From Escherichia phage PECP14: a stretch of DNA of 64,000 nt. The stretch lies in the sequence record OQ870555.1; one strand, given 5' to 3'. How positions within the stretch are numbered: position 1 is the stretch's first letter; the number at the start of each line of letters is the position of its first letter. Made by a program: the position numbers and the translations under genes. Positions 43,641 to 60,523 of the stretch are shown piece by piece. The notes beneath the pieces were generated by a model, which saw only the letters and a program-made list of their open reading frames with translations, made no database searches and was not told the DNA's origin.

Positions 43641-44342
43641 ATGAAATTCAAGCCCTTTGGTATGCTGGACATTGAATCTCTAGGTACTCCAGGAAATTGC
43701 GGTACTACTCATATTGCAATGCCTTCTTTCGCTTTTGTAGCGATGCACGGAATTGATAAAGATCCTGATCTGGTATTCGTTACTCTAGACGTTCAAGATC
43801 AGCTTAATGCGGGTGCTAAGGTAACTGCCTCTACTATTGCATTCTGGATGGATCAAGCTAAAAACAGTCCATCTGCGCTCCATATTATGGAGGCTCTAAA
43901 TGGTCGTAATCCTAAACTGATTGCCTTCCGTGATGGTAAGCATCACTGCACTAATGACGTAGGCTCTAATTATGCTGCCTTCTCTATGGCTCAGAACATT
44001 ATGGAATTGTCTCTAGGAGATAATGCTCTGTATTACGGCAATGGCCCAGAGTTTGATATGACAATCTACTCTGCAAATACGTTCCATGCCGGAACCCATG
44101 AAGAAATAGTTCCGTGGAAATTCTGGAACTTAGGTAACGTTCGATCTTTCCGTAATCAGTGGATGCAAGCTGGTTATAGCTATAAAGATCTAGAAGCCGA
44201 AGGTGCTAGCTGGGCAAAAGCTAAAATGGAAAAGATGGACACCATTCGTTATGGAATCTATCCTGTGAAGCATGATCCAGCATTCGATGCTTTAGTTGAA
44301 AGTTATTGTGTAGCCGTCATGATCGAAAAAATCAAAATTTGA
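43641..44342 (+). CDS. DEDDh-family 3'-5' exonuclease-like protein
   Basis: 233 aa; Exo I MLDIESLG, Exo II YYGNGPEFDMTIY, Exo III KHDPAFDALVESY (H-x4-D). Confidence 0.65.
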   Translation: MKFKPFGMLDIESLGTPGNCGTTHIAMPSFAFVAMHGIDKDPDLVFVTLDVQDQLNAGAKVTASTIAFWMDQAKNSPSALHIMEALNGRNPKLIAFRDGKHHCTNDVGSNYAAFSMAQNIMELSLGDNALYYGNGPEFDMTIYSANTFHAGTHEEIVPWKFWNLGNVRSFRNQWMQAGYSYKDLEAEGASWAKAKMEKMDTIRYGIYPVKHDPAFDALVESYCVAVMIEKIKI

Positions 44343-44649: not shown

Positions 44650-45288
44650 ATGACTACTCGTATCTCTAAAACTCGTGCTCTGGCAACTATCAAGTCTCTG
44701 GAAGCTAAAATCCGTAAAGCTACTGAACAACAGCTTTTGATTGCTGTTGGTGAAGGTAAAGACAAGAATCAAGTTGTCGTTGGTGCTGCAATCGAAGTAG
44801 ATGCTCTGTCTACTCGTATTAAAACTGATTTCCAGTCTCTGCTGGATATGATGACCCAGCGTGATCATCTGAAAGCAGCGCTGATCAAGAGCAATGCTGA
44901 AACTGTTGTAGAGATCGGTTCCCGCTCTATGACTGTTGCGGAAGCAATCGAAGCTAAGCGTTCTATGGAACTCAAAGCTCAGTTGCTGGCTAACATGCGT
45001 AAGCAGTTCCATGCTGCTACTGTTAAGTTTAACACTCAGAAGGCTCAGTTTGATGCCAAGTATGAGCGTTTGCAGGATACCATGGCTACCCGCGACAAGA
45101 AGACTTCCGAGGATGAAGTTAAGATGCAGCTTAACCTGCTGGAACTCAAGAACACTCCGTTCCTGATCGATCCGCTGGAGCTGGAAAAGCTGATCAAGCA
45201 ACACGACGAAGAATACCAGGACTTTGCAACCAACGTTGACTTTGTTCTGTCTGAGTCCAACGCCTCTACTTTTATCGAAGTAGAGTAA
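44650..45288 (+). CDS. hypothetical alpha-helical protein
   Basis: 212 aa ORF with RBS AAGGAAG. Confidence 0.55.
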   Translation: MTTRISKTRALATIKSLEAKIRKATEQQLLIAVGEGKDKNQVVVGAAIEVDALSTRIKTDFQSLLDMMTQRDHLKAALIKSNAETVVEIGSRSMTVAEAIEAKRSMELKAQLLANMRKQFHAATVKFNTQKAQFDAKYERLQDTMATRDKKTSEDEVKMQLNLLELKNTPFLIDPLELEKLIKQHDEEYQDFATNVDFVLSESNASTFIEVE

Positions 45289-45672: not shown

Positions 45673-45701
45673 TTGCTAATTAGTTTAGTTTTCTGTATAA
45701 T
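45673..45701 (+). promoter_or_regulatory. early promoter module
   Basis: TTGCTA-17 nt-TATAAT, then ..TTTAAATTGATGAGACGAGG..ATG. Confidence 0.65.
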
Positions 45702-45731: not shown

Positions 45732-46049
45732 ATGATTTTTCATATTCTGATTGATGATGTGCGTAACCTTCATGGAATGGACATTATCATTCGAACCCCC
45801 GAAGCCGCTGTTGAGTTTCTGAATAAAACCGATACCACAGGTCATTTCGTTTATATGGATAACGATCTGGCTGTAGATGGTATGGAAGGTTATCAAATTC
45901 TTCGTTTACTCCTAGAATTTGGTCAGAGACCCAAGAAAGTGGTACTAGTAACCTCGAACCCAGTAGCTAAAGAGACCATGCGTAATGATCTCTTAGACGA
46001 AGGGTATCAAGAAAGCCCTAATCGTATTGAGTACGATTGGCCGGAGTAA
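45732..46049 (+). CDS. hypothetical protein, possible receiver (CheY-like) fold
   Basis: 105 aa; alternating hydrophobic/acidic pattern (IFHILIDDV...YMDNDLAVDGMEGYQILRLL...VVLVTSNP) resembles a stand-alone receiver domain. Inference only. Confidence 0.5.
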   Translation: MIFHILIDDVRNLHGMDIIIRTPEAAVEFLNKTDTTGHFVYMDNDLAVDGMEGYQILRLLLEFGQRPKKVVLVTSNPVAKETMRNDLLDEGYQESPNRIEYDWPE

Positions 46050-46513: not shown

Positions 46514-46542
46514 TTGCTTAAAGCCTTAAATTTCTGTATAAT
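46514..46542 (+). promoter_or_regulatory. early promoter module
   Basis: TTGCTT-17 nt-TATAAT, then ..ATAAATTAATGAGAGGAAGCG..ATG. Confidence 0.65.
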
Positions 46543-46573: not shown

Positions 46574-46744
46574 ATGAAATCAGTTGTAATTATTGGTGTT
46601 AATACTCGTGGTATCCGTACTACGAAAACAGTTAAAACTACTAACGTTGCTGAAATTACTACAAACCCTAAGAAGTTTGATTTCGCCAAAGTCTCGGCAG
46701 TTATGACAGAACAATCTTTTAACCAAGCACTGGGAATTAAATAA
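46574..46744 (+). CDS. hypothetical small protein (56 aa)
   Basis: Not in the supplied track (under 60 aa); ATG with RBS GAGAGGAAG; coupled by TAATG to the next gene. Confidence 0.4.
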   Translation: MKSVVIIGVNTRGIRTTKTVKTTNVAEITTNPKKFDFAKVSAVMTEQSFNQALGIK

Positions 46745-47193
46745 TGGAAGAGAATATTCTAGATGTTTTGCGTAGGGCTTTGCAGGAATCTAAGGTTGAT
46801 GGTTCTGATAAAGAAGTAGCTAAAAGCTACCAGACCATAATCGGAGATCTTCAGCGTGTTGATAAAGACTTCATTACTTCTGAACAGTTTGTATCTTATC
46901 TAAAAGCTCAACTGAAAAGCATTAATCAGACGAAAGCTAAACTTCACGGTCAAGACCTTGATAATTATAGCTTGCAGTCTGCTCAGTATGAATATATACT
47001 GAACAAATGGTTACAACAGTATCTGCCGCCTCAGCTTTCTGATTCTGAGATTCGCAAATACTTTGCAGAATTAGTTAAGTTGAACCCTGGGATTACGAAG
47101 GGTATGCTGATGAAAGCGATTAAGGAAGAATTCCCTGGTCGTTATGATGGTGGTATTGCTGCTCAAGTTGCTGGCGAATTCAATAAAAATTGA
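46744..47193 (+). CDS. GatB/YqeY-domain protein
   Basis: 149 aa; ...NKWLQQYLPPQLSDSEIRKYFAELVKLNPGITKGMLMKAIKEEFPGRYDGGIAAQVAGE... matches the YqeY pattern (yLPqqLs.eE...GRaDG). Confidence 0.6.
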   Translation: MEENILDVLRRALQESKVDGSDKEVAKSYQTIIGDLQRVDKDFITSEQFVSYLKAQLKSINQTKAKLHGQDLDNYSLQSAQYEYILNKWLQQYLPPQLSDSEIRKYFAELVKLNPGITKGMLMKAIKEEFPGRYDGGIAAQVAGEFNKN

Positions 47194-47194
47194 T

Positions 47195-47223
47195 TTGCTA
47201 AACGCTTCAAAATTCTGTATAAT
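47195..47223 (+). promoter_or_regulatory. early promoter module directing transcription into the ORF-free segment
   Basis: TTGCTA-17 nt-TATAAT; the -35 overlaps the YqeY-like stop codon. Confidence 0.65.
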
Positions 47224-48057
47224 AGATTCATAAATTAGAGAACAGCGAGCCGATTACGCTGAGTGAGTTTAGTGATTCCTAATAGGATAGCTATTCCACT
47301 GAATAGAGTCGGTGAGTTGGAGACTAGTAAGTACTCTGAGAGAGGCTACGAGCTAACGCTTATTGCTATTGATAGGGAACTGAAAATCTGCGGAAAACTC
47401 GGGAGCTGTCCCGAAATCTCGTAAACTCTTCTCTAGTTTATGTTAGTGGGGTGTCGAACTGACTTATGTGATAACACTGCCAGATGCTCACAGGCTGACA
47501 TTGAGCTTTACTGCTCCTTCTGGAAAGAATCGGATAACTCGGGCTTATACCGGATAAGCATTCGCTGCTGGAGTACATACTATGACGGTTCAGGAGGTAC
47601 GCCACCTGATCAGTATTAGGTTAGAATCGAAACAGCTAAACCACGAGGAAACCTGACGGCCTCAACCAAACTCGGAACTCGGGATCACTGCCTAGTGTGT
47701 ACCCCGTTTAACCTGAGACTAGGCATCCAGCTTCGCATCGAAAATCGGAGGTGCGATTCTAACAGACCGCGTAACTATGAGAGTGGGAAACGCTGACATG
47801 AGAGATGTCACTAATGGTGCCCAATAGTACAGGTAATTCGCGATAATTCCTGTTGAGCGGCAGCAGTAGGCTGGGAGTCATGACCTAAGCCTAACCGAGT
47901 TCTTCACATACGGAGAACATAACCACAAAGTCACCCTGACTTAAACTGGAAGATATTGTCTGACGGAAGGGCTGCAGAGCTTAATCTGAGGGGGCTGACC
48001 CTACCTACCGTCGGGTATCTTTAAGAGCTTTTATAAGAGTTCTTAAAAATACCTAAA
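47224..48057 (+). ncRNA. candidate large structured non-coding RNA (ORF-free, promoter-driven, ends at tRNA-Arg)
   Basis: No ORF of 60 aa or more in any frame between 47194 and 48158; visibly more G+C-rich than flanking DNA; recurring AACTCGG(G) motif and several short hairpins. Identity unknown. Confidence 0.4.
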
Positions 48058-48132
48058 CGGGGTGTAGTCTAAGGGATAGGCAGGAGTCTTCTAAATTCCT
48101 TTATGCAGGTTCGAATCCTGTCACCTCGGCCA
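48058..48132 (+). tRNA. tRNA-Arg (anticodon UCU)
   Basis: Hand-folded: acceptor CGGGGTG/CACCTCG, anticodon arm GGAGT-CTTCTAA-ATTCC, T-arm GCAGG-TTCGAAT-CCTGT, encoded CCA. Confidence 0.75.
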
Positions 48133-49338: not shown

Positions 49339-49375
49339 AAGCCCGCGTTTCCTTCGAGAGCGCGGGCTTTTCTGT
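49339..49375 (+). terminator. rho-independent terminator after the SPFH gene
   Basis: AAGCCCGCG-(13-nt loop)-CGCGGGCTT followed by TTCTGTATTT. Confidence 0.7.
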
Positions 49376-49635: not shown

Positions 49636-50052
49636 TTAGGAGTTATTACCGCCATTTTGAGCTTTTGCAACTTGGCTTTGGCAGAAGCTATTAAACTTAC
49701 CCATAAGTGCTACAAGCTGTTTCCCATCCTCTGTCTTTGCGAAGTCTTCGAAAAGGGCTAGTACTGCCTGTCCTTCCGCAGAAACCTGCGGTTGTTGGGT
49801 TTGTTGCTGAACTTGCTGCTGAGGCACCTGTTGCTGCATTTGTTGAGGCATTTGCGACTGCCCGCTCATTTGCTGCATCATTTGCATAGGACTCACACTT
49901 CCAGGGTTTTGCTGGAGTTGCTGCTGCATCTGTTGCGCTTCTGCTAAACGCTGTTGCAACTGTTGTAGGTAAGGGTTATCCAGACCCGGAATGGGCTGCT
50001 GAGAGCCCATTGGTTGATTAAATCCGTTGTTCACAAAACCATATTTACTCAT
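49636..50052 (-). CDS. Gln-rich low-complexity protein
   Basis: 138 aa, about 35 percent Gln; RBS GGGGAGGAG before the ATG. Confidence 0.5.
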   Translation of the reverse strand: MSKYGFVNNGFNQPMGSQQPIPGLDNPYLQQLQQRLAEAQQMQQQLQQNPGSVSPMQMMQQMSGQSQMPQQMQQQVPQQQVQQQTQQPQVSAEGQAVLALFEDFAKTEDGKQLVALMGKFNSFCQSQVAKAQNGGNNS

Positions 50053-50074: not shown

Positions 50075-51076
50075 TTAGGCTGGTACTTTAGCCTGTAGAG
50101 CTGCTAGAGTCTGAGTAATTGCACCCAGGCTTACAGCGATTTGATTGATTACCTGACCGTTTGCACCGCTACCTGCAGCGATTGCTTCACGCAGACGGCA
50201 TTCATTCAGTTCGTCTTGGATACGCGCAGTAGTTACACCAGCAATCGCAGTCTGAAGTTCGCAGCAGCACTCAGCAAGCTGACGTTCGATAGCGTTCTGG
50301 TTAGCACACATCTGAGCCTGAACAGCGGCAAACTGGTTGTTAGTCTGAAGAGACTGCTGGAAAGCAATCTGGGCAGAGTCAAACTTGTCTTGTGCACGAG
50401 CGATCTGGTTAGCAGCGAAAGCTTGATCCATCTGGCGAGAAAGATCGAACTGACCCTGAATAACGTTACGAGTTTCCTGACAGATCTGGTTGGACAGGTT
50501 AGCACCAGTACCATACACAGTAGTCAGAATCTGTTGAGTGCTAGAAGCTTGAGCAGCACCTACACCATTAACAGCGCTCAGAACAGCACCAGTACCTTGA
50601 TTCGCTTCGGTACGAGCAGTGTTGATTGCAGCTAGAATACTTGCAGTATCCTGGTTAGATAGGATAGCATCCACAGCAGTTCCCTCAGCGGCAACACCAG
50701 CACCACGTCCGAAACCACCGAAACCACCGAATCCGCCTGTTAATAGAGCACCAATCAGGATAGCTCCGAATAGACCCATACCTTCACCGCCGAAAGCACC
50801 ATTTGCTACTGCTGGGTAACCACCCATCAGACCTGGGAAGCCGCTAGTGAATACGTTTACTGGTTCTTGCATTTTATGTTTCCTATGTTTATGACAGCCC
50901 TCATGGTCGTCATCTTCATCATCTTCATCGTCATCATCGTGATCACGATGTTTCTTTTCGTAGGCCTTGACCTTCTCCCACTTATGTTTGTCTGATTCCT
51001 CATGACGTCTCAGTTCTGCTGCGACTTCACTGACGGTCTCAGGTTTCTTAGTTGCTTCTTCTGTCATTTTTGACAC
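50075..51076 (-). CDS. acidic His/Asp-rich protein with glycine-zipper membrane segment and Gln/Ala-rich C-terminal region
   Basis: 333 aa; HRDHDDDDEDDEDDDHEGCHKHRKHK; LFGAILIGALLTGGFGGFGGFG; C-terminal ECCCELQ and CRLRE; RBS AGGAGGTG. Confidence 0.55.
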   Translation of the reverse strand: MSKMTEEATKKPETVSEVAAELRRHEESDKHKWEKVKAYEKKHRDHDDDDEDDEDDDHEGCHKHRKHKMQEPVNVFTSGFPGLMGGYPAVANGAFGGEGMGLFGAILIGALLTGGFGGFGGFGRGAGVAAEGTAVDAILSNQDTASILAAINTARTEANQGTGAVLSAVNGVGAAQASSTQQILTTVYGTGANLSNQICQETRNVIQGQFDLSRQMDQAFAANQIARAQDKFDSAQIAFQQSLQTNNQFAAVQAQMCANQNAIERQLAECCCELQTAIAGVTTARIQDELNECRLREAIAAGSGANGQVINQIAVSLGAITQTLAALQAKVPA

Positions 51077-51273: not shown

Positions 51274-51302
51274 TTGCTTGAATGCTAAATTCTCTGTATA
51301 AT
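51274..51302 (+). promoter_or_regulatory. early promoter module upstream of the NadR-like gene
   Basis: TTGCTT-17 nt-TATAAT, then ..ATAAATTTGAGAGAGGAATCAAAT-ATG. Confidence 0.65.
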
Positions 51303-51332
51303 ATATTTATAAATTTGAGAGAGGAATCAAAT

Positions 51333-52388
51333 ATGATTAAGACTGGTCTAGTAATTGGTAAGTTCGCACCATTAACGCGTGGTCATATTAACCTAATAAA
51401 CACAGCAGCAACTATGTGTGAACGAGTTATTGTTGTAGTTAGTCATGATAATCGTTGGCTGGATAAGCAGAACACACGTGATCAGGAAGTATTACAGTTA
51501 AAGAATCGACTTCGTTGGTTAGAACAAACTTACGCGGATATTGAGCACGTTTCGGTAGAGTACATTATTGAAGATGATATTCCTGAATATCCGAATGGTT
51601 GGCCGGAATATGCTAGAATCCTTAATGAAAATTATGGACATTTGCCTGAGATCACCATTTTCTCTAGCGAACTAGACTATGATGCAGAATATAAGAAATA
51701 TCTGCCGAAGTTTGGTCATTATATTGTAGATTCTGATCGGACTCGTGTTCCAATCTCAGCTACAATGATTCGTAATGATCTTATGAAGTATTGGGAGTTT
51801 CTTCCTAGCGTAGTTCGTAAAGATTACGTGCGTAAGGTTGTAATCATTGGGACTGAAAGCTCAGGCAAAACAACTTTAACAAAGTACCTTGCGAAATTAT
51901 ATAATACTTCGTGGGTAGAAGAATATGGTCGTACTTACTGCGAAGTTGATCTAGTTGGTAATGAAGAACTCCTGACTAGCGAGGACTATAATAAAATTGC
52001 ATTCAGGCACAAAGAGCTAGAGTTTGAGGCAGAACGTACTGCAAATAAGATCATGTTTGTAGACACAAATGCTTTCATTACAGAGTTTTATCACAGACTT
52101 TACGAGCATCGTAAAAATCCGGTTGTAACAGCTATTGCTAAAGAAGAGCATTATGATTTAGTTATAGTTTTAGCACCTACTGTTAAGTGGGTAGATGATG
52201 GTTTACGTATTAACTCCGATCGTTCAATTACTTCTGAACTGTTCGAGCAGATGAAGAAAGAATTTCCTAATCAGTTTCCAGAAGGGCGTACTGTATATAT
52301 TGACTCCCCGGACTATAAGGTTCGTATGGACGAAGCAGTAAACGCAGTAGACTGGCTGATTCATCACTTTAACGTTGGAGAGTTTTAA
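51333..52388 (+). CDS. nadR: bifunctional NMN adenylyltransferase / ribosylnicotinamide kinase (NadR-type)
   Basis: N-terminus GLVIGKFAPLTRGHINLI (nucleotidyltransferase H-x-G-H); central P-loop VVIIGTESSGKTTL (kinase); ATG at 51333. Confidence 0.8.
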   Translation: MIKTGLVIGKFAPLTRGHINLINTAATMCERVIVVVSHDNRWLDKQNTRDQEVLQLKNRLRWLEQTYADIEHVSVEYIIEDDIPEYPNGWPEYARILNENYGHLPEITIFSSELDYDAEYKKYLPKFGHYIVDSDRTRVPISATMIRNDLMKYWEFLPSVVRKDYVRKVVIIGTESSGKTTLTKYLAKLYNTSWVEEYGRTYCEVDLVGNEELLTSEDYNKIAFRHKELEFEAERTANKIMFVDTNAFITEFYHRLYEHRKNPVVTAIAKEEHYDLVIVLAPTVKWVDDGLRINSDRSITSELFEQMKKEFPNQFPEGRTVYIDSPDYKVRMDEAVNAVDWLIHHFNVGEF

Positions 52389-55445: not shown

Positions 55446-55520
55446 GCACCTTTAGCTGAGATGGATTAGCGCTTGCCTGAAGAGCTTGAGAGGTTGGATC
55501 GTTACCAACGGGGTGCACCA
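55446..55520 (+). tRNA. tRNA-Phe-like (anticodon GAA) with atypical stems
   Basis: Acceptor GCACCTT/GGGGTGC, D-stem GCTG/TAGC, loop CTGAAGA, unusual T-loop ATCGTTA, CCA; anticodon stem has two mismatches. Confidence 0.45.
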
Positions 55521-59674: not shown

Positions 59675-59753
59675 GGGGAATGGGTCTGCATGGAGTGGAC
59701 ACCTCGCTTGCACCGAGGACATCAGAACGGTTCGATTCCGTTATTCTCCACCA
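59675..59753 (+). tRNA. tRNA-Ala (anticodon UGC)
   Basis: Acceptor GGGGAAT/ATTCTCC with G3-U70, anticodon arm CCTCG-CTTGCAC-CGAGG, T-arm AACGG-TTCGATT-CCGTT, A73, CCA. Confidence 0.75.
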
Positions 59754-60433: not shown

Positions 60434-60523
60434 GGAAGGTAGGACATAGTGGTATGTAACAGGTCTTGAAAACCTGCCCGCTGTAGCGATATGGTGATGG
60501 TTCGACTCCATTACCTTCCTCCA
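60434..60523 (+). tRNA. tRNA-Ser (anticodon UGA), class II
   Basis: Acceptor GGAAGGT/ACCTTCC, anticodon arm CAGGT-CTTGAAA-ACCTG, long variable arm, T-arm GATGG-TTCGACT-CCATT, CCA. Confidence 0.75.

What the first reader, a model, noticed from the sequence alone, without database searches (positions are those of the whole stretch)
46744..47193. GatB/YqeY-domain protein encoded just upstream of the ORF-free segment and the tRNA island
The C-terminal half matches the YqeY pattern (YLPPQLS.SEI...GR.DGG). This domain is tRNA-associated in cellular organisms (found in Glu-tRNA amidotransferase B), and its position here suggests a role linked to phage tRNA function.
Basis: partly seen in the sequence, partly recalled or inferred. 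Interest (0 to 1): 0.45.

Follow-up and report, generated by a model that had tools for sequence, protein, structure and literature searches.

The report
Phage stand-alone YqeY protein by tRNAs
This T5-like phage gene encodes a small, non-enzymatic helical protein of the widespread but functionally unsolved YqeY family; it is already annotated in public phage genomes (often wrongly as a "tRNA amidotransferase"), and in many unrelated phages it sits beside transfer-RNA genes, which points to a helper role in tRNA handling.

Summary

The window is a T5-like Salmonella phage (Epseptimavirus). The gene is conserved in more than 450 phage records and belongs to PHROG_1460. Its public names are inconsistent ("YqeY domain", "tRNA amidotransferase", "recombination exonuclease"). 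It has no catalytic GatB domain, so it is not an amidotransferase.

The tRNA-linked interpretation gains comparative support. In 24 unrelated viral lineages encoding YqeY, 12 have co-oriented tRNA genes within 4 kb. Recurrent neighbours are RNA ligases, ArfB-type RF-1-domain proteins and PTH2. The link was already speculated for phage pf16.

The gene is dispensable. The viable T5 st0 deletion truncates the T5 homologue, and Sugarlandvirus phages lack it yet keep their tRNAs. The mechanism remains inferred. This is a known family and an ordinary finding.

The parts
46514..46542 (+). T5-type early promoter (TTGCTT, 17 nt, TATAAT) upstream of the DUF7616-YqeY gene pair
   Evidence: Read directly from the sequence. 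The equivalent position in T5 is annotated 'putative early promoter T5P22'. It falls below the threshold of the generic scan (3/6 in the -35 hexamer), so it is not listed.
46574..46744 (+). 56-aa basic protein (pI 10.4) of family DUF7616 / phrog_5077. Its stop codon overlaps the YqeY start codon (TAATG), so the two are probably translationally coupled.
   Evidence: Pfam PF24592 E = 5.6e-34. phrog_5077 E = 1.6e-40. The overlap is seen, and the same arrangement occurs in T5 (ORF077/ORF076). It is present or absent together with YqeY across Demerecviridae, but absent next to YqeY in all other lineages.
46744..47193 (+). The finding: a stand-alone YqeY-family protein, 149 aa, all-helical (8 helices)
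46744..47022 (+). N-terminal helical domain (aa 1-93, pI 5.3), with the family-conserved motif T31-IIGDLQRxDKD
   Evidence: Helices H5-18, H23-39, H46-66, H70-73 and H77-93 in the model. Conserved columns. Aligned to the YqeY N-domain. pI.
47023..47190 (+). C-terminal three-helix 'tail' domain (aa 94-149, pI 8.3). It is the most conserved part (YLPPQL..., GxLMKxIKxxFPGRYDG) and is the region homologous to YqeY-C and the GatB tail.
   Evidence: Pfam YqeY hit on aa 90-141. Most invariant columns of the phage family lie here. Helices H100-113, H119-129 and H136-145. The equivalence of YqeY-C and the GatB tail comes from the literature (PMC2811023).
47195..47223 (+). Second T5-type promoter (TTGCTA, 17 nt, TATAAT), 2 nt after the YqeY stop codon, driving the ORF-free segment
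   Evidence: 10 of 12 matches. The T5 record annotates 'promoter P16-17' at the same place.
47232..48057 (+). ORF-free, GC-richer, structured non-coding segment, homologous to the 719-nt 'RNAX' misc_RNA annotated in T5 and DT57C. It abuts the 5' end of tRNA-Arg. The 5' end is inferred from the promoter.
   Evidence: No PHROG or Pfam match for its small ORFs. GC is 46-50% against 36-40% in the flanks. Folding z = -3.3. No Rfam family. RNAX annotation. Conserved core and compensatory hairpin.
48058..48132 (+). tRNA-Arg(tct), the first phage tRNA downstream of the YqeY gene
   Evidence: ARAGORN. Rfam tRNA 49.3 bits.
49339..49369 (+). First intrinsic-terminator-like site downstream on the + strand. 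No terminator-like site was found between the YqeY gene, RNAX, tRNA-Arg and the SPFH gene, so co-transcription by read-through is plausible.
   Evidence: T5 annotates the bidirectional terminator 'ter1' here.

Best explanation
The gene encodes a free-standing YqeY-family protein. It is a small, non-catalytic, two-domain helical protein, homologous over its whole length to bacterial YqeY and, through it, to the non-catalytic helical and tail domains of GatB.

It is expressed early from a T5-type promoter, as the second gene of a two-gene cassette (DUF7616-YqeY). The cassette lies at the head of the phage's RNAX / tRNA-Arg / tRNA region.

The most likely role is that of an accessory, non-essential tRNA-handling cofactor. 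By analogy with GatB/GatE and Deinococcus GlnRS, the conserved C-terminal three-helix tail would contact the tRNA elbow (D-loop region). The N-terminal domain would dock a partner protein, such as a host aminoacyl-tRNA synthetase, a repair enzyme or the ribosome. Together they would improve charging, maturation or repair of the roughly 28 phage-encoded tRNAs during infection of hosts (E. coli, Salmonella) that have no YqeY of their own.

What is shown: family membership, fold, gene order, conservation, dispensability, and recurrent co-location with tRNA arrays and tRNA-repair or peptidyl-tRNA-hydrolase genes.

What is inferred: RNA binding, the identity of any partner, and the step that is assisted. 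It is not an amidotransferase and not an exonuclease.
For: Identity:
- PHROG_1460 at E = 2.9e-46.
- hhalign 99.9%, E = 2.8e-34, 141 columns.
- 49 of 55 profile hits match Pfam YqeY at E <= 0.001.
- AlphaFold2 pLDDT 89.

Context:
- T5-type promoters, a start/stop overlap with DUF7616, and no terminator-like site before 49339.
- RNAX and tRNA-Arg lie immediately downstream.

tRNA link:
- 12 of 24 unrelated viral lineages have co-oriented tRNAs within 4 kb of YqeY. The gene lies inside tRNA arrays in L011, L027, L017/L019 and L029 (= Ralstonia phage RSP15).
- Under a generous null, P is about 0.002 for 10 kb and 3e-4 for 4 kb.
- 11 of the 12 lineages share no other gene with this window.
- Neighbours recur across lineages: RNA ligase with Metallophos (L010, L020, L029), PHA02142-type RNA ligase (L012, L030), RF-1/GGQ proteins (L010, L011, L025), PTH2 and RtcB.
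- In this window, a cREC_REC (cyclic-phosphate-processing receiver) protein and an Rv2179c-like 3'-5' exoribonuclease-domain protein lie 0.7-3 kb upstream.

Literature:
- The GatB tail and YqeY-C superpose, and the tail binds the tRNA D-loop region (PMC2811023).
- The YqeY domain enhances tRNA affinity in D. radiodurans GlnRS (PMC1865053).
- yqeY is not found in E. coli (PMC13374519).
- pf16 tRNAs are adjacent to a YqeY protein (PMC5587285).
Against: - No experiment shows RNA binding by any free-standing YqeY. The isolated YqeY domain of D. radiodurans GlnRS did not shift tRNA-Gln and did not act in trans (PMC1865053).
- The protein is mildly acidic overall (pI 5.9).
- 11 of 24 viral lineages have no tRNA within 10 kb. 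In KVP40-like and T4-like vibriophages the gene sits next to uvsY.
- Sugarlandvirus-like phages keep their tRNAs and RNAX without it.
- T5 st0, which truncates the homologue, is viable.
- No conserved protein partner is encoded next to it across lineages.
- The YqeY-family protein AIM41/NUQM works as a pure protein bridge in complex I (PMC12487887).
- The tRNA-proximity statistic rests on an analytical null. The attempted empirical control failed.
Confidence: 0.5

Rival explanations
1. Ribosome-linked translation factor. Like bacterial YqeY, which is usually co-operonic and co-regulated with rpsU (bS21), the phage protein would act on the 30S subunit or on initiation rather than on tRNA. It would bias translation towards phage mRNAs.
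For: - The rpsU-yqeY operon association in bacteria suggests that YqeY is a protein-synthesis cofactor (PMC1865053; PMC13374519).
- The gene upstream here also encodes a small basic protein (56 aa, pI 10.4) translationally coupled to YqeY. This superficially mirrors rpsU-yqeY.
Against: - DUF7616 shows no bS21 similarity (only PF24592).
- No bS21 homologue lies next to any of the 35 viral YqeY genes (phmmer).
- The recurrent neighbours are tRNAs and tRNA-repair or peptidyl-tRNA-hydrolase genes, not ribosomal proteins.
Confidence: 0.15
2. Protein-protein adaptor unrelated to RNA. The YqeY fold would be used as a bridging or inhibitory module against a host protein, for example as part of the anti-defence or host-takeover early region.
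For: - The isolated YqeY domain does not bind tRNA.
- The gene lies next to the T5 region ORF071-075, described as an anti-defence island (PMC10644984).
- The protein is acidic overall.
Against: - The most conserved part is the C-terminal tail, which is the RNA-contacting module in GatB, not the N-domain.
- The recurrent tRNA and RNA-repair neighbourhood in unrelated phages is not explained.
Confidence: 0.12
3. Dedicated protein partner of the adjacent non-coding RNA (RNAX). The two would form a phage ribonucleoprotein, analogous to the preliminary YqeY-OLE RNA interaction reported in Bacillota.
For: - The gene ends 2 nt before the RNAX promoter, and the order YqeY-RNAX-tRNA-Arg is fixed in all Markadamsvirinae loci.
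- RNAX is structured and conserved. In most T5-likes it embeds a tRNA-like module with D- and T-arms, which is the kind of surface a GatB-type tail recognises.
- The Breaker laboratory reports preliminary evidence that YqeY binds OLE RNA (PMC12054373).
Against: - Co-occurrence fails in both directions. Sugarlandvirus-like phages keep the RNAX core, with its tRNA-like module, but lack YqeY. This window's phage keeps YqeY, yet its RNAX has lost the tRNA-like module.
- None of the non-Demerecviridae YqeY loci has RNAX homology.
Confidence: 0.07
4. The database labels are literally true: a tRNA-dependent amidotransferase (GatB-like) subunit, a 'carbon-nitrogen ligase', or a 'recombination-related exonuclease'.
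For: Only the product names in public records and in PHROG_1460.
Against: - The protein has 149 aa, with no GatB catalytic cradle domain and no nuclease domain.
- There is no Pfam GatB_N or GatB_Yqey hit and no NCBIfam GatB hit.
- The fold is YqeY only.
- According to the literature, the tail and helical domains are non-catalytic.
- The hosts use GlnRS/AsnRS and lack GatCAB (established knowledge, not tested here).
- 'Recombination related exonuclease' appears to be a propagated annotation error.
Confidence: 0.01

Closest known systems
Free-standing bacterial YqeY (B. subtilis 1NG6; C. jejuni 8XJE; V. parahaemolyticus 8XJG; Pfam PF09424)
   Same: - Colinear profile alignment over 141 columns.
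- Shared C-terminal motif YLPxQL ... GxxMK..K....G..DG.
   Different: - Only about 14-20% identical. This sequence scores 25.3 bits, below Pfam's 27-bit cutoff.
- It is encoded by a virus whose hosts lack yqeY.
- It is not next to rpsU, and is instead coupled to DUF7616 and followed by RNAX and tRNA genes.
- The function of the bacterial proteins is itself unknown.
T5 ORF076 / T5p079 and PHROG_1460 ('tRNA amidotransferase') in Demerecviridae and other large phages (pf16 gp65, RSP15, phi92, PA5oct, CBB, BcepSauron, phiM12, Tsamsa, pVp-1)
   Same: - Orthologous in T5 (48% identity, same gene order).
- 100% identical proteins occur in Salmonella phages 3-29 and SE3.
- Same family by HMM.
- Often near tRNA genes.
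   Different: - Nothing essential. This is simply a member of the family.
- Compared with T5, the neighbouring RNAX has lost its embedded tRNA-like module.
C-terminal helical and tail domains of GatB/GatE (tRNA-dependent amidotransferase)
   Same: - Same superfamily.
- The GatB tail superposes on YqeY-C (r.m.s.d. 1.97 A over 51 C-alpha atoms).
- The tail binds the tRNA D-loop region (PMC2811023).
   Different: - No catalytic cradle domain.
- No match to the GatB_Yqey Pfam profile.
- The GatB-specific extra helix and the Lys-rich KxGKxK motif are absent by inspection (the sequence here is KLNPGITKG).
YqeY-like C-terminal extension of Deinococcus radiodurans GlnRS
   Same: A homologous module that raises tRNA affinity and kcat of an aminoacyl-tRNA synthetase (PMC1865053). 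This is the best biochemical precedent for a 'tRNA affinity enhancer'.
   Different: There it is covalently fused and works only in cis. The free domain neither bound tRNA nor complemented in trans. The phage protein is free-standing.
AIM41 / NUQM (mitochondrial YqeY-family protein, bridging subunit of Pichia complex I)
   Different: It acts as a structural protein bridge with no RNA involved (PMC12487887). It is eukaryotic and mitochondrial.

Membership tests
YqeY family (Pfam PF09424; free-standing YqeY) | Significant match to the family profile | tested here: inconclusive
   This sequence alone gives E = 1.7e-5 and 25.3 bits, below the gathering cutoff of 27, over aa 90-141 only. At family level the match is met: 13 of 25 phage homologues hit PF09424 at E <= 0.01. 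49 of 55 proteins found with the phage profile match PF09424 at E <= 0.001. hhalign gives 99.9%, E = 2.8e-34.
YqeY family (Pfam PF09424; free-standing YqeY) | Two-domain all-helical fold of about 145 aa (N-terminal helical domain plus C-terminal three-helix bundle) | tested here: met
   [not shown]
YqeY family (Pfam PF09424; free-standing YqeY) | Conserved C-terminal motifs (YLPxQL...; GxxMKxxK....GxxDG) | tested here: met
   Y93-LPPQLSDSEI and G120-MLMKAIKEEFPGRYDG136. P95, Q97, M123, K127, D135 and G136 are nearly invariant across phage and cellular members.
YqeY family (Pfam PF09424; free-standing YqeY) | Typical bacterial context: an operon with rpsU (bS21). This is typical, not defining. 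| tested here: not met
   No bS21-like ORF lies in any of the 35 viral YqeY loci. The upstream gene here is DUF7616.
PHROG_1460 (phage 'tRNA amidotransferase' family) | Full-length HMM match | tested here: met
   E = 2.9e-46, aa 3-146 against profile positions 1-139 of 140.
GatB (Asp/Glu-tRNA amidotransferase subunit B) | Catalytic cradle domain (GatB_N) with kinase/transamidase site | tested here: not met
   The protein is only 149 aa. No GatB_N hit in Pfam at E <= 10 and no NCBIfam GatB model hit.
   [not shown]
GatB (Asp/Glu-tRNA amidotransferase subunit B) | GatB-specific tail insertion with the Lys-rich KxGKxK motif (PMC2811023) | tested here: not met
   By inspection the corresponding loop reads K112-LNPGITKG120. 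As in B. subtilis YqeY-C, there is no extra helix in the model.
GatB (Asp/Glu-tRNA amidotransferase subunit B) | Partner subunits GatA and GatC encoded in the same genome or host | not tested
   None is annotated in the 15-kb Sepoy context or the T5 context. The whole phage genome and the host were not scanned. That E. coli and Salmonella lack GatCAB is established knowledge, not tested here.
Recombination-related exonuclease (label in several GenBank records) | Any nuclease domain | tested here: not met
   No nuclease family appears in the Pfam, PHROG or NCBIfam results. The fold is YqeY.

The most novel reading that the evidence does not exclude
The YqeY-like protein is the protein component of a phage tRNA-maintenance ribonucleoprotein. 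It would bind tRNA-elbow-like surfaces both on the phage's own tRNAs and on the adjacent about 0.8-kb structured RNA (T5 'RNAX', which embeds a tRNA-like module in most T5-likes). The complex would protect, mature or deliver phage tRNAs when host tRNA-targeting defences are active. This would parallel the preliminary YqeY-OLE RNA interaction in Bacillota and would give the YqeY family its first defined function.
Probability: 0.07. Interest if true: 0.7.

Novelty: already known. Interest (0 to 1): 0.28.

Why it matters
YqeY is a widespread protein family with a crystal structure since 2003 and still no assigned function. Phages may offer the simplest genetic system in which to find one. Three results here bear on that:
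- The phage copies are full-length YqeY proteins, and the pipeline label 'tRNA amidotransferase' should not be trusted.
- In about a dozen unrelated phage lineages the gene travels with tRNA arrays and with tRNA-repair or peptidyl-tRNA-hydrolase genes.
- Natural knock-outs exist (T5 st0, Sugarlandvirus), so a phenotype is testable.

For this window itself the finding is ordinary: a known, conserved, non-essential accessory gene of T5-like phages.

Tried and rejected
1. GatB_Yqey profile (PF02637) and NCBIfam GatB models: no hit. Amidotransferase identity rejected.

2. Single-sequence PDB search: only E = 0.023 to 1NG6. This was too weak alone and was superseded by profile and structure evidence.

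3. The search for related loci with the broad alignment A3 failed because it had no conserved stretch. It was replaced by the six-sequence alignment A4.

4. Empirical control for tRNA proximity using the window's thymidylate synthase retrieved only T5-like relatives, so it cannot serve as a control. Only an analytical, deliberately generous null is given. Independence of lineages is approximated by the absence of blastn or tblastn similarity.

5. DUF7616 as a conserved partner of YqeY: rejected outside Markadamsvirinae.

6. bS21 next to viral YqeY: none found.

7. RNAX as a known RNA family: no Rfam match at the gathering threshold or at E <= 10, apart from a meaningless 17.9-bit RAGATH-14 hit.

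8. RNAX as a string of tRNA-like units: there is no ARAGORN call in this window even at 80% thresholds. T5 and the Klebsiella phage do have one embedded tRNA-like unit.

9. Literature on 'RNAX': nothing relevant in the library.

10. Strict YqeY-RNAX co-occurrence: rejected.
Full report
**What the window is.** The 3-kb region around the finding is 99.6% identical to Salmonella phage JNwz02 and 99.4% to phage Sepoy (Demerecviridae, Markadamsvirinae, Epseptimavirus), so this is a T5-like phage. ARAGORN finds 28 tRNA genes, all on the + strand: tRNA-Arg(tct) at 48058-48132 and 27 more between 53522 and 62698.

**Checking the observation.** An ATG-initiated ORF of 149 aa occupies exactly 46744-47193 on the + strand. 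It carries the quoted motifs Y93-LPPQLSDSEI and G132-RYDGG.

- Pfam YqeY (PF09424) matches at E = 1.7e-5 and 25.3 bits, against a gathering cutoff of 27, over residues 90-141.
- The GatB_Yqey profile does not appear at all at E <= 10.
- NCBIfam has no GatB hit.

The PHROG library gives a full-length, highly significant match to phrog_1460, named 'tRNA amidotransferase' (E = 2.9e-46).

I built a 25-sequence alignment of phage homologues and used it in several ways:
- Its profile aligns almost end to end with B. subtilis YqeY, PDB 1NG6 (8-138 against 6-141).
- An exhaustive hmmsearch of 1.84 billion representatives finds 804 proteins at E <= 1e-3. Nearly all are 130-155 aa and are matched over their whole length.
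- Of 55 of these, 49 match Pfam YqeY at E <= 0.001, best E = 3.5e-27.
- Profile-profile comparison of the phage family with 33 of those proteins gives 99.9% probability, E = 2.8e-34, over 141 aligned columns.

An AlphaFold2 model is confident (mean pLDDT 89) and all-helical with eight helices.
- Foldseek's six best PDB hits are all YqeY crystal structures (1NG6, 8XJE chains, 8XJG). They align over the full length with TM up to 0.70, and scores then fall to noise.

The entire protein is a stand-alone YqeY, not a protein with a YqeY-like C-terminal half.

Public records give this gene several names: 'YqeY protein domain-containing protein', 'tRNA amidotransferase', 'GatB domain containing protein', 'carbon-nitrogen ligase', 'recombination related exonuclease' and 'hypothetical protein'. 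The enzymatic names are not supported by any domain evidence.

**Local anatomy.**
- A T5-type promoter (TTGCTT, 17 nt, TATAAT; 46514-46542) precedes a 56-aa basic ORF of family DUF7616 (46574-46744).
- The stop codon of that ORF overlaps the YqeY start codon (TAATG). T5 has the same ORF077/ORF076 pair behind 'early promoter T5P22'.
- Two bases after the YqeY stop codon, a second promoter (47195-47223, 10 of 12 consensus matches) opens an ORF-free segment that runs to the 5' end of tRNA-Arg.
- In the T5 record AY734508 this segment is annotated as a 719-nt misc_RNA 'RNAX' with 'promoter P16-17'. The DT57C record carries the same label.
- The first terminator-like site on the + strand is at 49339-49369, after the SPFH/Band-7 gene. 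Read-through from the YqeY promoter into RNAX and tRNA-Arg is therefore plausible but not shown.
- Upstream neighbours are an Rv2179c-like 3'-5' exoribonuclease-domain protein (43641-44342), a cREC_REC (cyclic-phosphate-processing receiver) protein (45732-46049) and a SleB-type cell-wall hydrolase.

**Dispensability.** The same T5 record marks the recombination site of the st0 deletion inside T5p079, the YqeY homologue. The record starts at that site, and its partial CDS matches profile positions 56-144. T5 st0 therefore lacks about the last 87 codons of the gene, including the whole conserved tail domain. It also lacks RNAX, tRNA-Arg, the SPFH gene and further tRNA-region sequence. T5 st0 is a viable laboratory strain (established knowledge).

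In Sugarlandvirus (Klebsiella T5-like phages) the syntenic site reads exonuclease, endolysin, RNAX-like sequence, tRNAs. It has no YqeY by three HMMs and no DUF7616. Two further Sugarlandvirus-like loci show the same pattern and still carry 12-14 tRNAs. All eight Markadamsvirinae loci keep the order DUF7616-YqeY-RNAX-tRNA-Arg. DUF7616 plus YqeY is thus an accessory two-gene cassette.

**Testing the tRNA interpretation.** Using six intermediate homologues, I retrieved 35 viral-contig loci (+/-10 kb) encoding YqeY relatives. Each has a full-length stand-alone YqeY ORF.
- The loci fall into 24 groups without DNA similarity.
- Thirteen groups have tRNA genes within 10 kb and twelve within 4 kb.
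- Every one of these tRNAs is on the same strand as YqeY.
- In L011, L027, L017/L019, L029 (identical to Ralstonia phage RSP15) and L039 the gene lies inside or at the edge of a tRNA array.

For the 17 groups on contigs of at least 100 kb, I used a deliberately generous null: every genome has one 10-kb tRNA cluster, and the gene is placed at random. It predicts 19% within 10 kb and 12% within 4 kb. The observed counts are 9 and 8 of 17 (P about 0.002 and 3e-4). Only the L005/L006/L008 group shares other genes with this window, so the remaining eleven tRNA-proximal lineages have not simply inherited T5 synteny.

A Pfam survey of 150 neighbouring ORFs shows recurrent, cross-lineage neighbours:
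- RNA ligase with a metallophosphoesterase (L010, L020, L029)
- PHA02142-type RNA ligase (L012, L030)
- RF-1-domain/GGQ proteins of the ArfB type (L010, L011, L025)
- PTH2 peptidyl-tRNA hydrolase
- RtcB
- HNH endonucleases

tblastn shows the family in many large phages, among them Vibrio T5-likes, phi92, PA5oct, CBB, BcepSauron, phiM12/phiN3, Tsamsa, nt-1 and pf16.

The association is not universal. Eleven lineages have no tRNA nearby, and in KVP40-like phages the gene sits next to uvsY. It is also not a new idea, because the pf16 paper already noted it (PMC5587285).

**Mechanism.** According to the literature, the GatB/GatE tail (which is equivalent to YqeY-C) contacts the tRNA D-loop region (PMC2811023). 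In D. radiodurans GlnRS the appended YqeY domain raises tRNA affinity and kcat, but only in cis. The free domain neither binds tRNA nor complements in trans (PMC1865053).

Bacterial yqeY is typically co-operonic with rpsU, and the gene is absent from E. coli (PMC13374519). The Breaker laboratory reports preliminary YqeY binding to OLE RNA (PMC12054373). A YqeY-family protein is a protein bridge in Pichia complex I, acting through its N-domain (PMC12487887).

In the phage family the C-terminal tail is by far the most conserved part. It is mildly basic (pI 8.3), whereas the N-domain is acidic (pI 5.3).

The best-supported reading is an adaptor. The tail would contact a tRNA-elbow-like RNA surface, and the N-domain would dock a partner. 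Together they would assist use, maturation or repair of phage tRNAs. RNA binding, the partner and the step assisted are all inferred. I put about 0.97 on family identity and about 0.4-0.5 on a tRNA-linked role.

**The adjacent RNA (followed only as far as it bears on the finding).** The segment 47232-48057 has 46-50% GC against 36-40% in the flanks. It folds better than shuffled controls (z = -3.3) and matches no Rfam family.

Homology extends to T5, to Sugarlandvirus and, for a core of about 140 nt, to the distant L005/L006 group. An alignment of 33 distinct sequences shows invariant blocks: GGGGTGTSGAAMT..CTTATGT...AACACTG and AAGAA..GATAACT. It also shows a hairpin with compensatory variants: GCTTAT/ATAAGC, GCTTTT/AAAAGC and GGTTC/GAACC.

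Most T5-likes embed a tRNA-like unit with a GGTTCGAATCC T-arm between the blocks. In this window that unit is deleted or degenerate. YqeY and RNAX, or its tRNA-like unit, do not co-vary in presence, which argues against a dedicated YqeY-RNAX particle. That reading is not excluded.

**Verdict.** More precisely it is a full-length free-standing YqeY of PHROG_1460, already present and annotated in hundreds of public phage genomes. It is non-catalytic and non-essential. Its recurrent company of tRNA arrays and tRNA-repair or rescue genes in unrelated phages supports a tRNA-related accessory role, but no experiment has yet defined that role. Novelty: already known. Interest: modest, about 0.28.

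Noticed in passing
window 47232-48057 (+): The ORF-free segment after the YqeY gene is the homologue of the T5 'RNAX' misc_RNA (719 nt in AY734508). It has its own strong promoter (47195-47223) and is GC-richer and structured (z = -3.3). It matches no Rfam family. It has invariant sequence blocks and a hairpin with compensatory changes across Demerecviridae. In most T5-likes it embeds a tRNA-like unit that is degenerate in this window. Its function is unknown, and I found no literature on it.
   Followed up: partly
window 45732-46049 (+): A 105-aa protein with a cREC_REC domain (cyclic-phosphate-processing receiver, PF20274, E = 1.1e-14). This domain is associated with RNA-repair systems. It has its own T5-type promoter (45673-45701), 0.7 kb upstream of the YqeY gene.
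   Followed up: no
window 43641-44342 (+): A 233-aa protein with an Rv2179c-like 3'-5' exoribonuclease domain (PF16473, 31.9 bits). It is annotated merely as 'exonuclease' in phage records, and may be the source of the 'recombination related exonuclease' label wrongly attached to the YqeY gene in some records.
   Followed up: no
window 46574-46744 (+): DUF7616, a 56-aa basic protein (pI 10.4) translationally coupled to YqeY. It is gained or lost together with YqeY within Demerecviridae but is absent from all other YqeY-encoding phage lineages examined.
   Followed up: partly
window 44650-45288 (+): A 212-aa ORF in the early region matches phrog_1491, labelled 'tail fiber protein' (E = 4e-81), and has no Pfam domain. 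That label looks doubtful for a gene in this position.
   Followed up: no
window 55446-55517 (+); 59675-59753; 60434-60523: The tRNA callers disagree. Rfam reports a weak tRNA (33.4 bits) at 55446-55517 that ARAGORN does not call. ARAGORN calls tRNA-Ala at 59675-59753 and tRNA-Ser at 60434-60523, which are missing from the Rfam gathering list. These may be degenerate or unusual tRNAs.
   Followed up: no
window 49636-50052 (-) and 50075-51076 (-): Two reverse-strand ORFs have strongly biased composition. One is Q-rich and is annotated in Sepoy and T5 as 'cAMP-dependent protein kinase catalytic subunit', which looks unfounded. The other has an acidic/His-rich stretch followed by a Gly/Ala-rich region.
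   Followed up: no
window 51282-52388 (+) and downstream: A NadR-like nicotinamide-nucleotide adenylyltransferase gene, followed in Sepoy by a PnuC-like transporter gene, lies between tRNA-Arg and the main tRNA island. This is an NAD-salvage module embedded in the tRNA region.
   Followed up: no
L010, L011, L020, L025, L029, L031 (viral contigs): In unrelated large phages, YqeY genes lie within about 3.5 kb of RNA ligase with a metallophosphoesterase, ArfB-type RF-1-domain proteins and PTH2, in or beside tRNA arrays. This looks like a recurrent 'tRNA maintenance / translation rescue' gene neighbourhood that may deserve its own study.
   Followed up: partly
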